The notes below the pieces were generated by a model. The model did no database searches and was not told the DNA's origin. It saw only the letters and a program-made list of their open reading frames with translations. A DNA stretch of 64,000 nucleotides, from the IMG/VR virus record IMGVR_UViG_3300020579_000006, positions 1-64,000 of that record; one strand, given 5' to 3'. The stretch comes from a virus. The position numbers and the translations under genes are program-made. This document shows, in pieces, positions 1,611 to 54,455 of this stretch (the stretch's first letter is position 1; every line of letters starts with the position of its first letter).

Positions 1611-1685
1611 TGGCTGTAGGGGTAGGATTCGCACCTACATCTTATTCCTTAACGGGGAAGCGTCTTACTATTAGACGACCCTACA
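1611..1685 (-). tRNA. tRNA-Asn(GTT), atypical (C33, T-loop TGCGAAT)
   Basis: Cloverleaf with TGTAGGG/CCCTACA acceptor stem, anticodon loop CCGTTAA, encoded CCA. Confidence 0.8.
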
Positions 1686-8156: not shown

Positions 8157-8245
8157 TGGTGGATAGGGTAGGATTTGAACCTACTACGTCGCTAGGACGG
8201 CCAGATTTACAGTCTGGTACGGCTCCCCGTCTCCGTCGCCTATCC
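8157..8245 (-). tRNA. tRNA-Tyr(GTA)
   Basis: GGATAGG/CCTATCC acceptor stem, CCAGA-CTGTAAA-TCTGG, long variable arm, CCA. Confidence 0.9.
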
Positions 8246-30995: not shown

Positions 30996-31072
30996 GCGAG
31001 GCTAGTGTTTAAAAGCCAGCACACCGGTCTTCCAAACCGGTAGTATCGGTGCAACTCCGATGCTTCGCTCCA
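30996..31072 (+). tRNA. tRNA-Gly(TCC)
   Basis: GCGAGGC/GCTTCGC acceptor stem, CCGGT-CTTCCAA-ACCGG, U73, CCA. Confidence 0.88.
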
Positions 31073-31077
31073 TTTAA

Positions 31078-31151
31078 GGAGTCGTCGTCTAGTGACAAGA
31101 CGCTCGACTGTCGCTCGAAGAACGAGGGTTTGATTCCCTTCGACTCCGCCA
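31078..31151 (+). tRNA. tRNA-Asp(GTC)
   Basis: GGAGTCG/CGACTCC acceptor stem, loop CTGTCGC, G73, CCA. Confidence 0.85.
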
Positions 31152-44139: not shown

Positions 44140-44402
44140 TGTCTAGGTTTAAAGCTGCCCGCCATGTTCTTGGCGGTAAATCTCGCAAGAAAATTCGTTC
44201 AGTTCGTGGTCGCCGAAAGATTAAGAAAACTGTGGATGAGTGGAAAGCGGGAACTCTGCATAGCGGGTCTAAGACAGGTCCTGTAGTTAAGTCACAGAAG
44301 CAAGCGGTCGCAATTTCGCTCTCGCAAGGTCGCAAGCACGTAAGGAAGGGTAGTCCGGAAAATGAACACAATAGAACCAGCACCTCCGAAACAGGGGTGT
44401 AA
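44139..44402 (+). CDS. DUF6496-like protein
   Basis: 'EWKAGTLHSGSKTGPVVKSQKQAVAISLS'. Confidence 0.75.
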   Translation: MSRFKAARHVLGGKSRKKIRSVRGRRKIKKTVDEWKAGTLHSGSKTGPVVKSQKQAVAISLSQGRKHVRKGSPENEHNRTSTSETGV

Positions 44403-44480
44403 GCCAGTAAATGGAAGCTGTCCGGTTTTGGAAACCGGTGTCGCAAGACTTTAGAGGTTCGAGTCCTCTCACCCCTACCA
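44393..44480 (+). tRNA. tRNA with TGG (Pro) anticodon but long class II variable arm
   Basis: AGGGGTG/CACCCCT acceptor stem, CCGGT-TTTGGAA-ACCGG, variable hairpin GTC-GCAA-GAC, A73, CCA. Confidence 0.75.
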
Positions 44481-50854: not shown

Positions 50855-52054
50855 ATGAGTGAACCACTCGCAGTAAATAGAACGCCCGTAGACCCGTTTA
50901 GTTTTGAAGACCCTCGATTTGCAGGGGTCGATACAGCAGTGCGCAGAGAAGATTTACCGGTCGCAGACGATGACGGTTGGGAAGACCCTGGATTTCAAGC
51001 TACACAACGGGTTCCAGCTAGTAACCAATTTTTTAAAGACCTAAGCGATATCGCAGACGAGACTCCTGAAGTACAGGAAGTTCTCGATGCCGAAGTACTA
51101 GCAGCTACTCCTCCGCCTCCCGCTCCAGCGGTTGCCACAGTTGTAGTACCCGACCAACCTGAAGTTATCGAATATGACGATGGTTCCTCAGTCACCATAG
51201 AAAAGACAGCCAAGGGATGGAGCGCTACTTTAGATAGTAATACATCTAGTGGCGTAGAAATCTTCCGTGGTAAAACCAAAGACGAAATGTGGCGTAATCT
51301 AGCGGCAGGCAAAATTAACGCTACCCGTAAGATTAATTCACTGAATCGTCAGATTAAGTTGGGTCAACCCGAGGTTTCTCAGACTCAACCTGCCGCACCA
51401 AAAGTCCGGGAACTGACCGCCGACGAAGTGTTCGAGCTTAAAACTCAACTTCAGAATAACCCCGACCTAGCATTCCAAAGTTGGTTCCAAAAGAAAACCG
51501 GTAAAACTGTGGAACAACTAACCACTCTAGCTGAAAAAGGCGAAGAGGCTAACGAGAATCTTCGTCAGGAATATGAAGCTAAATCGTTTAGAGCTGAATA
51601 TCCTGAATATTTTAATACTGACGAAAACTATCAGTCACTTCTAGCTTGGCTCAGAAAACACAAAAACCTAGATAAAGATATTTTACAGTTTAACGCAAAG
51701 AATTTAGGAGAAGCTTTTGAAGACCTATCCTCTGACGGATTGTTAGATGAAGCTCCGAAAGTAGCTCCAGTAAGACGAGCATCTGCACCACAACCTACCC
51801 CAGTAGCCGCTACCCCAGTTCCTGATGTTGTGCCTGCACCCGCTCCAGCGCCTGCTCCCGACCCACGGATTGTGGGAACGACAAAGCGGCGAGTACGTGG
51901 TAATTTCGGTATACCTCAGAGCGCTATTACCAACGCTCAACCGGTCGCTGAAACCGCACCTACAGACGAAGAGTTGGATAATCTTTCTAACGATGAAATC
52001 AACCAGTTATTCTCTGGTGTTCGACGTTTAAGAGCACAATCCGCTCGGCGCTAA
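50855..52054 (+). CDS. capsid scaffolding protein
   Basis: Acidic, Pro/Ala-rich, helical; immediately upstream of the capsid gene; C-terminal 'DEELDNLS.DEI' helix. Confidence 0.7.
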   Translation: MSEPLAVNRTPVDPFSFEDPRFAGVDTAVRREDLPVADDDGWEDPGFQATQRVPASNQFFKDLSDIADETPEVQEVLDAEVLAATPPPPAPAVATVVVPDQPEVIEYDDGSSVTIEKTAKGWSATLDSNTSSGVEIFRGKTKDEMWRNLAAGKINATRKINSLNRQIKLGQPEVSQTQPAAPKVRELTADEVFELKTQLQNNPDLAFQSWFQKKTGKTVEQLTTLAEKGEEANENLRQEYEAKSFRAEYPEYFNTDENYQSLLAWLRKHKNLDKDILQFNAKNLGEAFEDLSSDGLLDEAPKVAPVRRASAPQPTPVAATPVPDVVPAPAPAPAPDPRIVGTTKRRVRGNFGIPQSAITNAQPVAETAPTDEELDNLSNDEINQLFSGVRRLRAQSARR

Positions 52055-52081
52055 GAACTAAACGACTCTAAAGAGAAATCT

Positions 52082-53773
52082 ATGAGTTATTCTCCCGCGA
52101 GTATTCAGACTTCCGGTGCGCTTCCTAACTTGGTTGCGATTTACTACGAACGTCAGAGTATTCCTAACCTGAAGGCCCAAACACCCTTCTTATCCATGAC
52201 TATTTAAGCTGCTTGGTCATGCAAACCGAAGTGGTAGATATTGAAGCAGAAACCACTTCCGCTACGGTCAGGAAATCAGATTCAATTTTTCACCTATGCT
52301 CTATTGGCGGCTAATACCAACCAAGCGGCAGAAGGTACTGTTGGGTCTCCAATTTCCGAAAGCTCCACTAAAATCATAGCGACAATTGGTCAGTTGAAAT
52401 CATCGGCTGACTTTAAATTTGGCTATATCCGTTAACCCCTTATTAGCATCTAATATAAGAAGAGACGGAGGTAAGATTCCAATGGCTATTATAAGTAAAA
52501 CGAAATGGGCATACGTCGCCGCAATGGTGGACGGAGAAGGTCACATTTCCATAGCAGGGACCAAATCAGGGCAAGGCTATAAAGGCAAACCCTATTGGTT
52601 AATAGATTGTAAGATTGGTATTTCAAACACTTCTGTGGAACTAATGAAGTGGCTAAAAGAGAATTTTGGCGGCGAATATCATGACGGTGGACAAGGTTCT
52701 AGAAGAATTTGTTATAGATGGAACCTTCAAAACTACAAACAAATGGAAAAATTTGTTCTTGCAATCCTGCCTTATATGGTTATTAAGAGAAAACAGGCAC
52801 TTTTAGCTCTTGAGTTTTTTCGTATGTTTGGGCAGAAAAACCCGGCTAAACGATTAGAACTAGCTAGAAGATGCCAAGCTCTTAATAGAGGAATAACCCC
52901 AGAGACTAATACGCCAAACCCGGTTTTAGAACCGGTGAAGATAGAGTCCGAACTTACTAGTGATAGTAAGAGTGCAGCAGTAGTGATACTGCCAGATAAC
53001 GTCGATTTTAAAGTACGCTATCTTACCGCAGAAAACTCGGTAGCCTAAACACATTTGACGCTGACTTTATTAACAGTTCCGACCTAGCTATGGACGTAGC
53101 GATTGACGACCCGTCGTTACTTCAGAACCTAGCAACCGAACTAAATTATCGCCTTGCTCTTACCCTCAACTCGCTCGTTCAGCTTACCTCTGACAGCGCG
53201 GTTGGTGTTGATGGCACGGTTAACATCCAGTTAGCAAACGGTTCATACCTTACTGCTAACAACCTCCGTACCGCTACTCAGCAATTGGCTGGCGTAAATG
53301 CCCGTCCACTTACTAAGGACGGTTACTGGGGCGGAATTATCCATCCGTTCGTTGTACACGACGTGCTAAACGACACGTCCGTCAATGGATTGACTGACAT
53401 CCTAAAGCGCAACGGTGATTCAGCACAAAAACTATTTGCGCCCCTGTCAAACGAGGAAGTTATCGAGTTCGCTGGCTGCCGTTTCAAACAGACCACGACC
53501 GCACCTTCCGTAACCATCTCCAGCAACACGTACTACAATACGTATATTTATGCTGATGATGCCCTCTTTAGTGTCTTCCTTGGAAAAAATCCTGAGTCCG
53601 GTGAAAAGAACTACCGACTTATGATACAAGAAGCTCCTAGCCAGGGTTCAGTGAGCGACCCCGCACGACAGATAGGAGGTTGGGTTTCGTACAATGTTAA
53701 GTATACCAACACTCTTCGTCCCGGTTCCACTATGGTTCTTCGACGCCTACAATCGGAAACTTCGAGTTCGTAG
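52082..53773 (+). CDS. major capsid protein, N4-gp56-like, three exons: join(52082..52201, 52244..52394, 53058..53773) = 328 aa
   Basis: Spliced product reads MSYSPAS...YYERQSIPNLKAQTPFLSMT|KQKPLPLRSGNQIQFF...EGT...IATIGQ|YADFINSSDLA...GIIHPFV..D...GCRF...DP..Q.G.VSY; 120+151+716=987 nt. Confidence 0.9.
52202..52243 (+). other. 42-nt core-less group-I-like mini-intron in capsid gene
   Basis: Two in-frame stops (TAA 52205, TAG 52235); internal guide CTGCTTGGTCATG complementary to the ligated junction CATGACT|AAGCAG; exon-terminal U, intron-terminal G. Confidence 0.8.
52395..53057 (+). mobile_element. group I self-splicing intron (663 nt)
   Basis: P1 GTCAGT/GCTGAC with U.G; P3 TTTGGC/GCCAAA; R element CCAGAGACTA; S element AAGATAGAGTCC; P8 CCGGTT/AACCGG; P9 hairpins with GTGA loops; terminal G; removal restores Q-Y-A-D-F. 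Confidence 0.93.
52482..53048 (+). CDS. intron-encoded LAGLIDADG homing endonuclease/maturase
   Basis: 'WAYVAAMVDGEGHI...ISNT...WL...FGG...ILPYMVIKRKQA'; starts in the P6 region and runs through the core. Confidence 0.92.
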   Translation: MAIISKTKWAYVAAMVDGEGHISIAGTKSGQGYKGKPYWLIDCKIGISNTSVELMKWLKENFGGEYHDGGQGSRRICYRWNLQNYKQMEKFVLAILPYMVIKRKQALLALEFFRMFGQKNPAKRLELARRCQALNRGITPETNTPNPVLEPVKIESELTSDSKSAAVVILPDNVDFKVRYLTAENSVA

Positions 53774-53782
53774 GAGTAACCT

Positions 53783-53871
53783 TTTCCACTTAGTTAGCAT
53801 CTAATTAAGTGCGGTTCAGTGCAGAGAAATCTGCGCTCCACTCTGGTCCCAGAGTAATGGGCAACTGGAAA
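53783..53871 (+). ncRNA. multi-hairpin structured RNA downstream of capsid gene
   Basis: Closing TTTCCA/TGGAAA; hairpins CACTTAGTTAG-CAT-CTAATTAAGTG, GTGCAGA-GAAA-TCTGCGC and ACTCTGG-TC-CCAGAGT. Confidence 0.45.
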
Positions 53872-53918
53872 CGGGGGTGCCTCGAACACCCCCTATCCAA
53901 CTCTTTCGAGGAGAGAAA

Positions 53919-54455
53919 ATGAAGTTTATTATTTATATTGTAAGAAACAAAATTAACAATAAGGTTTACGTTGGCAAAACATCTCAAAAACTCCGTCGCA
54001 GATGGTCCCATCATATCTCCCATGCTCCCGGCGACCCGTATTACTTCCACAGAGCTATTTGTAAGTATGGCTCAGAGAACTTTGAAATATCTGAAATTGA
54101 CTGCGCCGAAGAACTAACAACTGCAAATCAGCTAGAACAACAATATATACAAGAGTTTAAATCTTATAACCCCGAGTTTGGTTATAACAGTACGTTTGGC
54201 GGGGACGGGGTGCCTTGTACTCCCGAAGCAAAAGAAAAACACCGTCAATCAATGATTGGCAAACCCAAATCTATAGAATCTCGGCAAAAACAAAGTATTT
54301 CCGTAACAGGTGTAAACAACCCTCGTTATGGCTGTCCGGTTTCGGAAGAAACCCGTTTAAAGAGAAGTCTAAAATTAGCAGGCAGACCGAGACCTAAAGA
54401 AGTTATAGACAGAATCACATTAGCCAAGTTTCTTAAAACAGTAGCTTGGGGTTAA
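53919..54455 (+). CDS. GIY-YIG/NUMOD3 homing endonuclease
   Basis: FIIYIVRNKINNKVYVGKT...GYNSTFGGDG. Confidence 0.9.
   Translation: MKFIIYIVRNKINNKVYVGKTSQKLRRRWSHHISHAPGDPYYFHRAICKYGSENFEISEIDCAEELTTANQLEQQYIQEFKSYNPEFGYNSTFGGDGVPCTPEAKEKHRQSMIGKPKSIESRQKQSISVTGVNNPRYGCPVSEETRLKRSLKLAGRPRPKEVIDRITLAKFLKTVAWG

What the first reader, a model, noticed from the sequence alone, without database searches (positions are those of the whole stretch)
52195..52259. A 42-nt core-less group-I-like mini-intron (guide sequence plus terminal G only) splits the major capsid gene
Seen in sequence: the capsid ORF (ATG 52082) stops after ...FLSMT-I at TAA 52205 and again at TAG 52235, then resumes in the same frame at KQKPLPLRSG. 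Removing exactly 52202-52243 (ATTTAAGCTGCTTGGTCATGCAAACCGAAGTGGTAGATATTG) gives ...PFLSMT|KQKPLP..., the expected N4-gp56-type segment. Inside the insert, CTGCTTGGTCATG (52209-52221) is a contiguous 13-nt complement of the ligated exons. GGUCAUG pairs with the 5' exon CAUGACU, with a U.G wobble at the cut site (P1), and CUGCUU pairs with the 3' exon AAGCAG (P10). The insert ends in G. GAAGUGGU (52228-52235) can also pair with exon ACCACUUC (52252-52259) around the 3' splice site. Established: these are the substrate-recognition rules of group I introns, but a catalytic core (P3-P9) needs roughly 200 nt and is absent here. Inference: this is a non-autonomous, substrate-only intron spliced by another ribozyme core, most plausibly the full group I intron starting 151 nt downstream. 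Both introns end in UUG, so the mini-intron could form P9.0 with that core. An essential gene would then depend on the neighbouring intron, locking it and its endonuclease in place. I know of no described natural example of this arrangement.
Basis: partly seen in the sequence, partly recalled or inferred. Interest (0 to 1): 0.97.

Follow-up and report, generated by a model that had tools for sequence, protein, structure and literature searches.

The report
Core-less mini-intron in phage capsid gene
A 42-base insert that breaks this soil phage's only capsid gene keeps the splice-site helices of a self-splicing group I intron but has no catalytic part, so it probably needs another intron's ribozyme; the environmental RNA contigs I could check still contain it.

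Summary
Window 52202-52243 is a real 42-nt insert with two in-frame stops in the only N4-gp56-type capsid gene of a 94.9-kb soil phage. It appears in DNA contigs and in separate RNA libraries. Removing it exactly restores ...SMT|KQK..., as in uninterrupted homologues.

A 13-nt internal guide pairs with both exon ends: P1 with U.G at the cut, and P10 (0 of 2000 shuffles match). The insert ends in G, and a third helix clamps it to the 3' exon.

Related capsid genes carry 16 such minis (32-52 nt) at seven sites, with the same rules and with compensatory changes. They occur only in genes that also hold full-size group I introns. Four split the invariant Trp codon T|GG, which only RNA joining can restore.

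New here: in two soil metatranscriptomes the 663-nt neighbour intron is spliced exactly at 52394|53058, but the assembled RNA keeps the mini. No spliced mini junction was seen. Contigs cannot exclude a minority spliced form.

Best reading (about 0.5): a non-autonomous group I remnant, excised slowly by a borrowed ribozyme core. Excision itself is not shown.

The scan noted the same phenomenon earlier in other genomes, without RNA data. I found no published natural example.

The parts
52082..52201 (+). Capsid exon 1 (codons 1-40, ends ...ATG ACT)
   Evidence: Spliced alignment to P0004.
52202..52243 (+). 42-nt core-less mini-intron (in-frame TAA 52205, TAG 52235; last base G 52243)
   Evidence: Homologous 51-nt mini at the same codon in L072/L073. 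Retained in RNA contigs.
52195..52201 (+). P1 exon strand CATGACT; its last U pairs with G 52215 (wobble at the 5' cut)
   Evidence: P1 = 7 bp; in the MFE fold. Compensatory C-G vs A-U at position -7 against L072.
52209..52221 (+). Internal guide: P10 strand CTGCTT (52209-14) directly followed by P1 strand GGTCATG (52215-21)
   Evidence: 0 of 2000 shuffles. 12 of 12 nt identical in L072 although linkers diverged.
52244..52249 (+). P10 exon strand AAGCAG (first 6 nt of exon 2)
52228..52235 (+). Clamp helix S3, intron strand GAAGTGGT
   Evidence: Absent from full-size introns at this site. This kind of helix is specific to minis.
52252..52259 (+). Clamp helix S3, exon strand ACCACTTC
   Evidence: Exon nt 121-143 are 23/23 identical to L072 against 47% third-position identity overall.
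52244..52394 (+). Capsid exon 2 (151 nt)
52395..53057 (+). Full-size group I intron (663 nt); own P1 is 52388-94 with 52406-12; Rfam core match 52645-52970; ends TTTG
   Evidence: RF00028, about 30 bits, below the gathering score. Splicing seen in RNA exactly at 52394|53058 in two runs.
52482..53048 (+). LAGLIDADG homing endonuclease ORF inside the large intron, overlapping the ribozyme core
   Evidence: PF00961, E = 0.006, below cut-off.
53058..53773 (+). Capsid exon 3 with stop

Best explanation
The 42 nt are a non-autonomous remnant of a group I intron. An ancestral full-size intron at codon 40/41 lost everything between its P1/guide region and its last few bases. What remains is substrate only: a hairpin presenting the 5' cut site as a U.G pair (P1), a guide that aligns the 3' exon (P10), a terminal G, and a newly evolved clamp helix to the 3' exon (S3). 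It cannot hold a guanosine-binding site or the P3-P9 core. The two transesterifications must therefore be catalysed by a group I core made elsewhere, most likely the 663-nt intron 151 nt downstream, which is the only core detected in this genome. The RNA contigs show the large intron already gone while the mini is still present. So I infer that the mini is removed later and more slowly than the large intron, by the released ribozyme acting on a pre-formed P1, and not before that intron leaves. Shown: the anatomy, its recurrence and covariation, selection on the helices, the link with full-size introns, and splicing of the large intron. Inferred: that the mini is excised at all in this phage, which core does it, and the order of events.
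For: (1) P1 + P10 + terminal G in the window: 0 of 2000 shuffles reach this pairing. (2) The same design appears in 16 non-redundant minis at seven codon sites; 12 have p <= 0.005, and guide sequences change with the exon sequence (for example GAAGGCA/TGCCTTT in L047 against GAAGGCT/AGCCTTT in L075). (3) Four minis at codon 298 split the invariant Trp codon as T|GG, so only joining of the RNA restores the protein. (4) WIN and L072 capsid genes have dS about 2.4 and dN/dS 0.04. Even so, guide (12/12), S3 (8/8), terminal ATTG and the first 23 nt of exon 2 are identical, while the linkers differ by substitutions and indels. So the helices are under selection in the core-less state. (5) The clamp helix averages 7.9 bp in minis against 5.0 in 71 full-size introns, p = 3e-8. 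(6) Minis are found only in genes that also have full-size introns (13 vs 0 of 37, p = 9e-6). Eleven of 16 have one within 40 nt downstream (p < 5e-5). The base before the terminal G matches that of the downstream intron in 10 of 14 (p = 0.003), and both preceding bases match in 6 of 14 (p = 0.0006); here both end UUG. (7) There is one capsid gene and one detectable group I core in the genome. (8) The large intron is an active ribozyme in nature: the RNA junction 52394|53058 appears in two runs. (9) Engineered group I ribozymes can remove an intron from another RNA in trans (PMC4509937, abstract seen). Fungal 56-81-nt degenerate group I introns with P1, P10 and an intron/3'-exon helix are reported to splice only when long flanking RNA is present (PMC3160393).
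Against: No spliced 52201|52244 junction was seen in three RNA runs. The assembled RNA form in two of them keeps the mini while the large intron is out. A database protein, P0001, starts at the TTG that ends the mini and lacks the large intron, which points the same way. If the core had to act in cis before its own excision, these RNAs would be dead ends. In this window the clamp helix lies 128 nt from the large intron's P1, unlike the abutting arrangement in most relatives, and I found no special exon-2 helix bridging them. RF00028 is insensitive here (30 bits for a proven intron), so another core in the phage or its host cannot be excluded. The statistics rest on a few lineages that share ancestry.
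Confidence: 0.5

Rival explanations
1. Minimal self-splicing intron: the mini, helped only by flanking exon RNA, catalyses its own excision, as claimed for the 67-nt PaSSU intron of Phialophora.
For: It shares P1 with G.U, P10 and an intron/3'-exon helix (PM there, S3 here) with the fungal small introns, which are reported to splice in vitro when about 300 nt of extra exon is present (PMC3160393).
Against: The fungal introns keep a small P7 with a guanosine site. Here 21 of the 42 nt sit in P1, P10 and S3 and the rest are short A/U-rich linkers, with no second internal helix. It does not explain why minis occur only beside full-size introns.
Confidence: 0.1
2. The insert is not removed. Either the capsid protein is made in two pieces (residues 1-41, plus a restart at TTG 52241), or this genome is defective and is carried by co-infecting relatives.
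For: The RNA contigs keep the mini. The insert ends in an in-frame TTG just before Lys41, as do the minis of L072 and L074.
Against: There is no convincing ribosome-binding site before the TTG. Most other minis offer no in-frame start, and four split a Trp codon. dN/dS is 0.04 downstream of the mini and the RNA helices are conserved across dS about 2.4. The same allele is present in DNA and RNA of several samples.
Confidence: 0.12
3. Protein-mediated excision: a nuclease cuts at both ends, which the guide holds together, and an RtcB-type ligase joins the exons.
For: The three helices bring both cut sites together. Nothing in my data identifies the catalyst.
Against: U.G at the 5' cut, a terminal G and a contiguous P1/P10 guide are specifically group I signals. 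The match of the last bases to the neighbouring intron and the strict co-occurrence with full-size introns are unexplained by this model. No candidate enzyme was looked for.
Confidence: 0.07
4. Programmed translational bypass (ribosome hop), as in T4 gene 60, over an intron-derived gap.
For: The insert stays in the mRNA. A stop (TAA) follows codon 41. L072 and the L047 mini at codon 30 happen to have matching codons before the stop and before the resumed frame.
Against: In the window the codon before the stop is ATT, while the only in-frame landing codons are ATA or TTG, so there is no match and extra residues would be added. The stop lies before the guide in WIN but after it in L072, so the geometry is not conserved. 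A bypass cannot rebuild the split Trp codon of the codon-298 minis.
Confidence: 0.06

Closest known systems
Small 'degenerate' group I introns of fungal nuclear SSU rDNA (PaSSU of Phialophora, Arthonia, Porpidia; 56-81 nt; Harris and Rogers 2011, PMC3160393)
   Same: Tiny. [quoted passage not shown]
   Different: The fungal introns keep a small P7 guanosine site and end in U. They sit in rRNA, form one lineage essentially at one site, and are not described as paired with a full intron. The phage minis are smaller (32-52 nt), have no P7, end in G, interrupt a protein-coding gene at seven sites, and always accompany full-size introns.
Self-splicing group I introns of phages (T4 td, nrdB, sunY; Twort orf142; recalled from memory) and the full-size introns of this capsid family
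   Same: Splice-site rules (U.G in P1, P10, terminal G). The mini's first ~25 nt are homologous to full-size introns at the same codon.
   Different: No P3-P9 core and no ORF, so it cannot be autonomous.
Engineered 'spliceozymes': Tetrahymena group I ribozyme variants that remove an intron from a separate pre-mRNA in trans (PMC4509937)
   Same: A group I core acting on an intron that has no core of its own. This shows that the proposed chemistry is feasible.
   Different: Artificial. The guides sit on the ribozyme, whereas here the guide sits in the intron and presents a ready-made P1.
T4 gene 60 50-nt coding gap (translational bypass; bioRxiv 10.1101/2022.08.31.505936; PMC5462505)
   Same: An insert of about 50 nt in an essential phage gene, with a stop codon at its start, retained in the mRNA, possibly derived from a mobile element.
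   Different: No matched take-off and landing codons here. The conserved features are splice-site helices. Relatives split a codon, which a hop cannot repair.

Membership tests
Group I intron (Rfam RF00028) | P1 helix with U.G wobble at the 5' splice site formed by an internal guide | tested here: met
   CATGACT/GGTCATG, 7 bp, U52201.G52215.
Group I intron (Rfam RF00028) | Terminal G and P10 pairing of the guide with the 3' exon | tested here: met
   G52243; CTGCTT/AAGCAG, contiguous with P1; 0 of 2000 shuffles.
Group I intron (Rfam RF00028) | Catalytic core P3-P9 with a guanosine-binding site in P7 | tested here: not met
   Only 42 nt, 21 of them in P1, P10 and S3. No Rfam match in 52202-52243 even at E <= 1. 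The fold shows no further helix.
Group I intron (Rfam RF00028) | Excision from RNA with exon ligation | tested here: inconclusive
   No 52201|52244 junction in contigs of three RNA runs, and the mini is retained in the assembled form. Contigs drop minority variants.
PaSSU-type small degenerate group I introns | P1, P10 and an intron/3'-exon helix (PM) | tested here: met
   against the description in PMC3160393.
PaSSU-type small degenerate group I introns | Residual P7 with a guanosine site; terminal U; common descent with the fungal clade | tested here: not met
   No P7-like helix, and a terminal G. It derives from phage introns at the same codon.
T4 gene 60-type translational bypass | Identical take-off and landing codons that give the correct protein | tested here: not met
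   ATT-TAA ... TAG ATA TTG|AAG. Relatives split a Trp codon.
T4 gene 60-type translational bypass | Gap retained in the translated mRNA | tested here: met
   RNA contigs of X3 and X4 keep the 42 nt. Translation of that RNA was not tested.
Non-autonomous intron dependent on a neighbour's ribozyme (proposed class) | Occurs only together with a complete core in the same gene or genome | tested here: met
   13 vs 0 of 37 loci (Fisher 9e-6). One core in this genome.
Non-autonomous intron dependent on a neighbour's ribozyme (proposed class) | Excision requires that core | not testable with these tools
   Needs in vitro or in vivo splicing assays with core mutants.

The most novel reading that the evidence does not exclude
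A natural two-part group I splicing system. Substrate-only mini-introns (guide, terminal G and an exon clamp) have been stably maintained in essential phage capsid genes and are excised by the ribozyme of a separate full-size intron after that intron's own release. That would be a natural counterpart of engineered spliceozymes and the first non-autonomous class of group I introns. It would also make the host gene hostage to the neighbouring intron and its homing endonuclease.
Probability: 0.4. Interest if true: 0.9.

Novelty: new variant of a known kind. Interest (0 to 1): 0.8.

Why it matters
Group I introns are textbook autonomous ribozymes. An intron reduced to its substrate helices that still persists in an essential gene would show that their catalysis can be shared between introns in nature. 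It would give a simple model for how a trans-acting splicing machine and dependent introns can arise from self-splicing ancestors. It would also explain how a selfish intron and its endonuclease become fixed: the host gene needs their ribozyme. In practice, such minis break gene calls in phage metagenomes, where capsid genes are annotated as fragments. The RNA result matters too. It shows that the insert is not cleared together with the neighbouring intron, so capsid expression may be limited or timed by a slow second splicing step, or something other than splicing rescues the gene.

Tried and rejected
- A metagenome scan for the window's exon 2|exon 3 junction found nothing.
- Scans for the codon-40 mini motif returned only the L072/L073 contig family.
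- blastn of the gene against isolated phages found nothing. The nearest isolate capsid is Tunturiibacter phage Tunturi_3, at 35% identity.
- No database protein is identical to the conceptual product of any mini-bearing locus, so no spliced RNA contig could be recognised that way.
- I looked for an exon-2 helix that would bring the mini next to the large intron's P1. The 5 bp in the window is no better than in uninterrupted relatives.
- My first junction-enumeration scripts failed where two interruptions lie close together. I replaced them with my own spliced protein-to-DNA alignment and a corrected refinement script.
- Readthrough of both stops, frameshifting and a split protein were considered and rejected as general explanations, because relatives have minis of 32-52 nt in all phases, four of them inside a Trp codon.
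- Literature searches for a natural core-less or helper-dependent group I intron in phages found none.
- Read laying showed no spliced mini junction. This is absence in contigs only.

Full report
**What is there**

The window belongs to a 94,864-base IMG/VR virus record. Its nearest cultured relative by capsid protein is an Acidobacteriota phage, at 35% identity.

The capsid gene (N4-gp56 family, named so by sources) runs from ATG 52082 to the stop at 53771-73 and is in three pieces.
- Exon 1 ends at ...ATG ACT (52201).
- 42 nt follow, with in-frame TAA (52205) and TAG (52235).
- Exon 2 (52244-52394) resumes in the same frame.
- A 663-nt intron (52395-53057) with a LAGLIDADG ORF follows, then exon 3.

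More than 100 homologues of 326-329 aa read straight through as ...PFLSMTKQKPLPL.... A search of the whole genome with such a homologue finds only these pieces, so there is no spare capsid gene.

**Is the pattern more than chance?**

I anchored a search on a G that pairs with the last exon U. The insert then gives 7 bp of P1 and 6 bp of directly adjacent P10. None of 2000 shuffles of the insert reaches 13. The local fold is the P1 hairpin plus a hairpin between GAAGTGGT and exon ACCACTTC.

**Relatives**

A scan of viral contigs gave 80 capsid loci. I aligned a full-length homologue to each with my own spliced protein-to-DNA alignment. About half of the loci are uninterrupted. The rest carry one to six interruptions in three size classes: 574-1057 nt (plus one of 2265 nt), 195-292 nt, and 32-52 nt.
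- For 82 of 89 non-redundant interruptions, boundaries with U before the cut and G as the last base fit the protein as well as any other.
- Sixteen non-redundant minis lie at seven sites (codons 30, 32, 40, 187, 268, 297/298, 309/310).
- Twelve have an anchored P1 + P10 guide at p <= 0.005. Two more are interrupted by one U-U mismatch, and one needs a 4-nt boundary shift.
- The guides differ from site to site and follow the exons, for example GAAGGCA/TGCCTTT in L047 against GAAGGCT/AGCCTTT in L075.

L072/L073 carry a 51-nt mini at the same codon as the window. It shares the guide (12/12), GAAGTGGT (8/8) and the terminal ATTG. The linkers differ by substitutions and indels, and P1 shows a C-G to A-U exchange. 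The first ~25 nt of both minis align with the 5' ends of 715-nt and 988-nt introns at that codon in L047 and L062. The mini is therefore an internal-deletion derivative of a full intron.

**A third helix**

Every mini pairs its 3' part with the 3' exon just after P10. This helix averages 7.9 bp in minis and 5.0 bp in 71 full-size introns (p = 3e-8). It has no counterpart in the full-size introns at codon 40, so it arose in the core-less state. Harris and Rogers describe the same kind of helix (PM) in the 56-81-nt degenerate group I introns of fungal rDNA (PMC3160393).

**Selection**

The capsid genes of WIN and L072 differ at 25% of bases. Third positions are 47% identical, dS is about 2.4 and dN/dS is 0.04, both before and after the mini. 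Yet the first 23 nt of exon 2, which hold the partners of P10 and S3, are identical, as are the paired blocks inside the mini.

Recent transfer would have kept the linkers identical too. The simplest reading is long-term selection on the helices and on an in-frame capsid protein downstream.

**Splicing or hopping?**

Four minis at codon 298 (L039, L040, L047, L077) split the invariant Trp codon as T|GG. No TGG is available otherwise, so only joining of the RNA restores the protein.

In the window the codon before the stop is ATT, while the only in-frame landing codons after TAG are ATA and TTG. In L072 the first stop lies after the guide, not before it. The gene 60 rules are therefore not met.

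**Link to full-size introns**

- Minis occur only in genes that also have full-size introns (13 loci against 0 of 37, Fisher 9e-6).
- Eleven of 16 have a full-size intron within 40 nt downstream (randomisation p < 5e-5).
- Two more sit at the edge of their locus.
- The window, L072 and one L075 mini are 151-182 nt away.
- The base before the terminal G equals that of the next downstream intron in 10 of 14 (p = 0.003), and both preceding bases match in 6 of 14 (p = 0.0006). The window has UUG and UUG.
- In ten micro-exon cases the exon strand of the clamp abuts or overlaps the P1 strand of the downstream intron (gap -5 to +5). The two helices partly exclude each other, which suggests the downstream intron goes first.
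- This does not apply to the window, where the gap is 128 nt, and I found no bridging helix there.
- The large capsid intron is the only group I match in the window and in the whole genome. The model scores it at only about 30 bits, so sensitivity is limited.

These lineages share ancestry, so the p-values overstate independence.

**RNA**

Public runs holding this stretch include soil metatranscriptomes. I laid Logan contigs of three RNA runs and one DNA run on 51800-54000.
- X3 and X4 each contain a contig that joins 52394 to 53058. This is the first direct evidence that the large intron splices, and it does so exactly at the predicted sites.
- The same X3 contig runs without a gap from 51825 through the mini to 52394.
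- An X4 contig covers 52178-52357 without a gap.
- No contig joins 52201 to 52244.
- Unspliced large-intron junctions are also present (X3 52584-53087, X4 52909-53059, X6 52290-52437), so the RNA pool contains many incompletely processed molecules.
- There is almost no cover of 52395-52583 in X3, which argues against DNA carry-over.
- The database protein P0001 (JGI, 1604-nt contig) starts at the TTG that ends the mini and lacks the large intron, which fits the same RNA form.

Contigs keep the majority path, so a minority spliced form cannot be excluded. What is shown is that the mini-retaining, large-intron-spliced RNA is at least the commoner assembled form in two samples.

**Reading**

Anatomy, covariation, the split codon and selection all say the mini must be removed at the RNA level by group I-type chemistry that it cannot provide itself. 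Co-occurrence and the matching 3' ends point to the neighbouring intron's core. The RNA says the neighbour leaves first and the mini stays longer. This fits action by the released ribozyme, or very inefficient cis action, and it is also what the overlapping helices in relatives suggest. Excision in this phage is still not demonstrated. I put about 0.5 on the borrowed-core model and give the rivals separately.

**Novelty**

Searches of the held literature found no natural phage case. The nearest items are the fungal small introns and engineered spliceozymes (PMC3160393, PMC4509937). This scan had already noted the same phenomenon in other genomes and in this one, always without RNA data.

Noticed in passing
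L062:3970-3979: A 10-nt frame-breaking insert (TTATAATTTG) in a relative's capsid gene sits at codon 293, where L081 and L082 have ~219-nt introns. It has U before it and ends in G, but has no room for any guide. A 214-nt intron lies 29 nt downstream. How this one could be removed is unexplained.
   Followed up: partly
window 52584-53087 (RNA run X3): An RNA contig covers the 3' 470 nt of the large intron (its catalytic core) plus 30 nt of exon 3 at the same depth as the exons, while the intron's first ~190 nt have almost no cover. This could be a stable core-plus-exon-3 RNA lacking its own P1/guide, an endonuclease mRNA, or an assembly gap.
   Followed up: no
window 53919-54455: A free-standing GIY-YIG/NUMOD3 homing endonuclease gene lies directly after the capsid gene (Pfam E = 2e-12), preceded by a terminator-like hairpin around 53873-53893.
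   Followed up: partly
window 52482-53048: The LAGLIDADG ORF reads through the Rfam-matched ribozyme core and stops 9 nt before the intron's last base, so the core doubles as coding sequence.
   Followed up: no
L047, L065, L082 and other loci: Capsid genes of this soil phage family carry up to six interruptions, with micro-exons of 16-39 nt between a mini and a full intron. Gene callers report them as fragments of 170-290 aa.
   Followed up: yes
window 1614-1685, 8160-8245, 30998-31148, 44393-44477: Five tRNA genes in the window (Rfam RF00005).
   Followed up: no
window 52936-52974 (DNA run X1, record 2): A 39-nt stretch of the large intron's core matches, with 2 differences, a different 70.9-kb contig of the same soil sample. 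A related intron is probably present in another genome there.
   Followed up: no
L060:1725-1740: A 16-nt gap in my spliced alignment near codon 310 does not fit the U/G rule. It may be an alignment artefact in a divergent (about 63% identical) relative.
   Followed up: no
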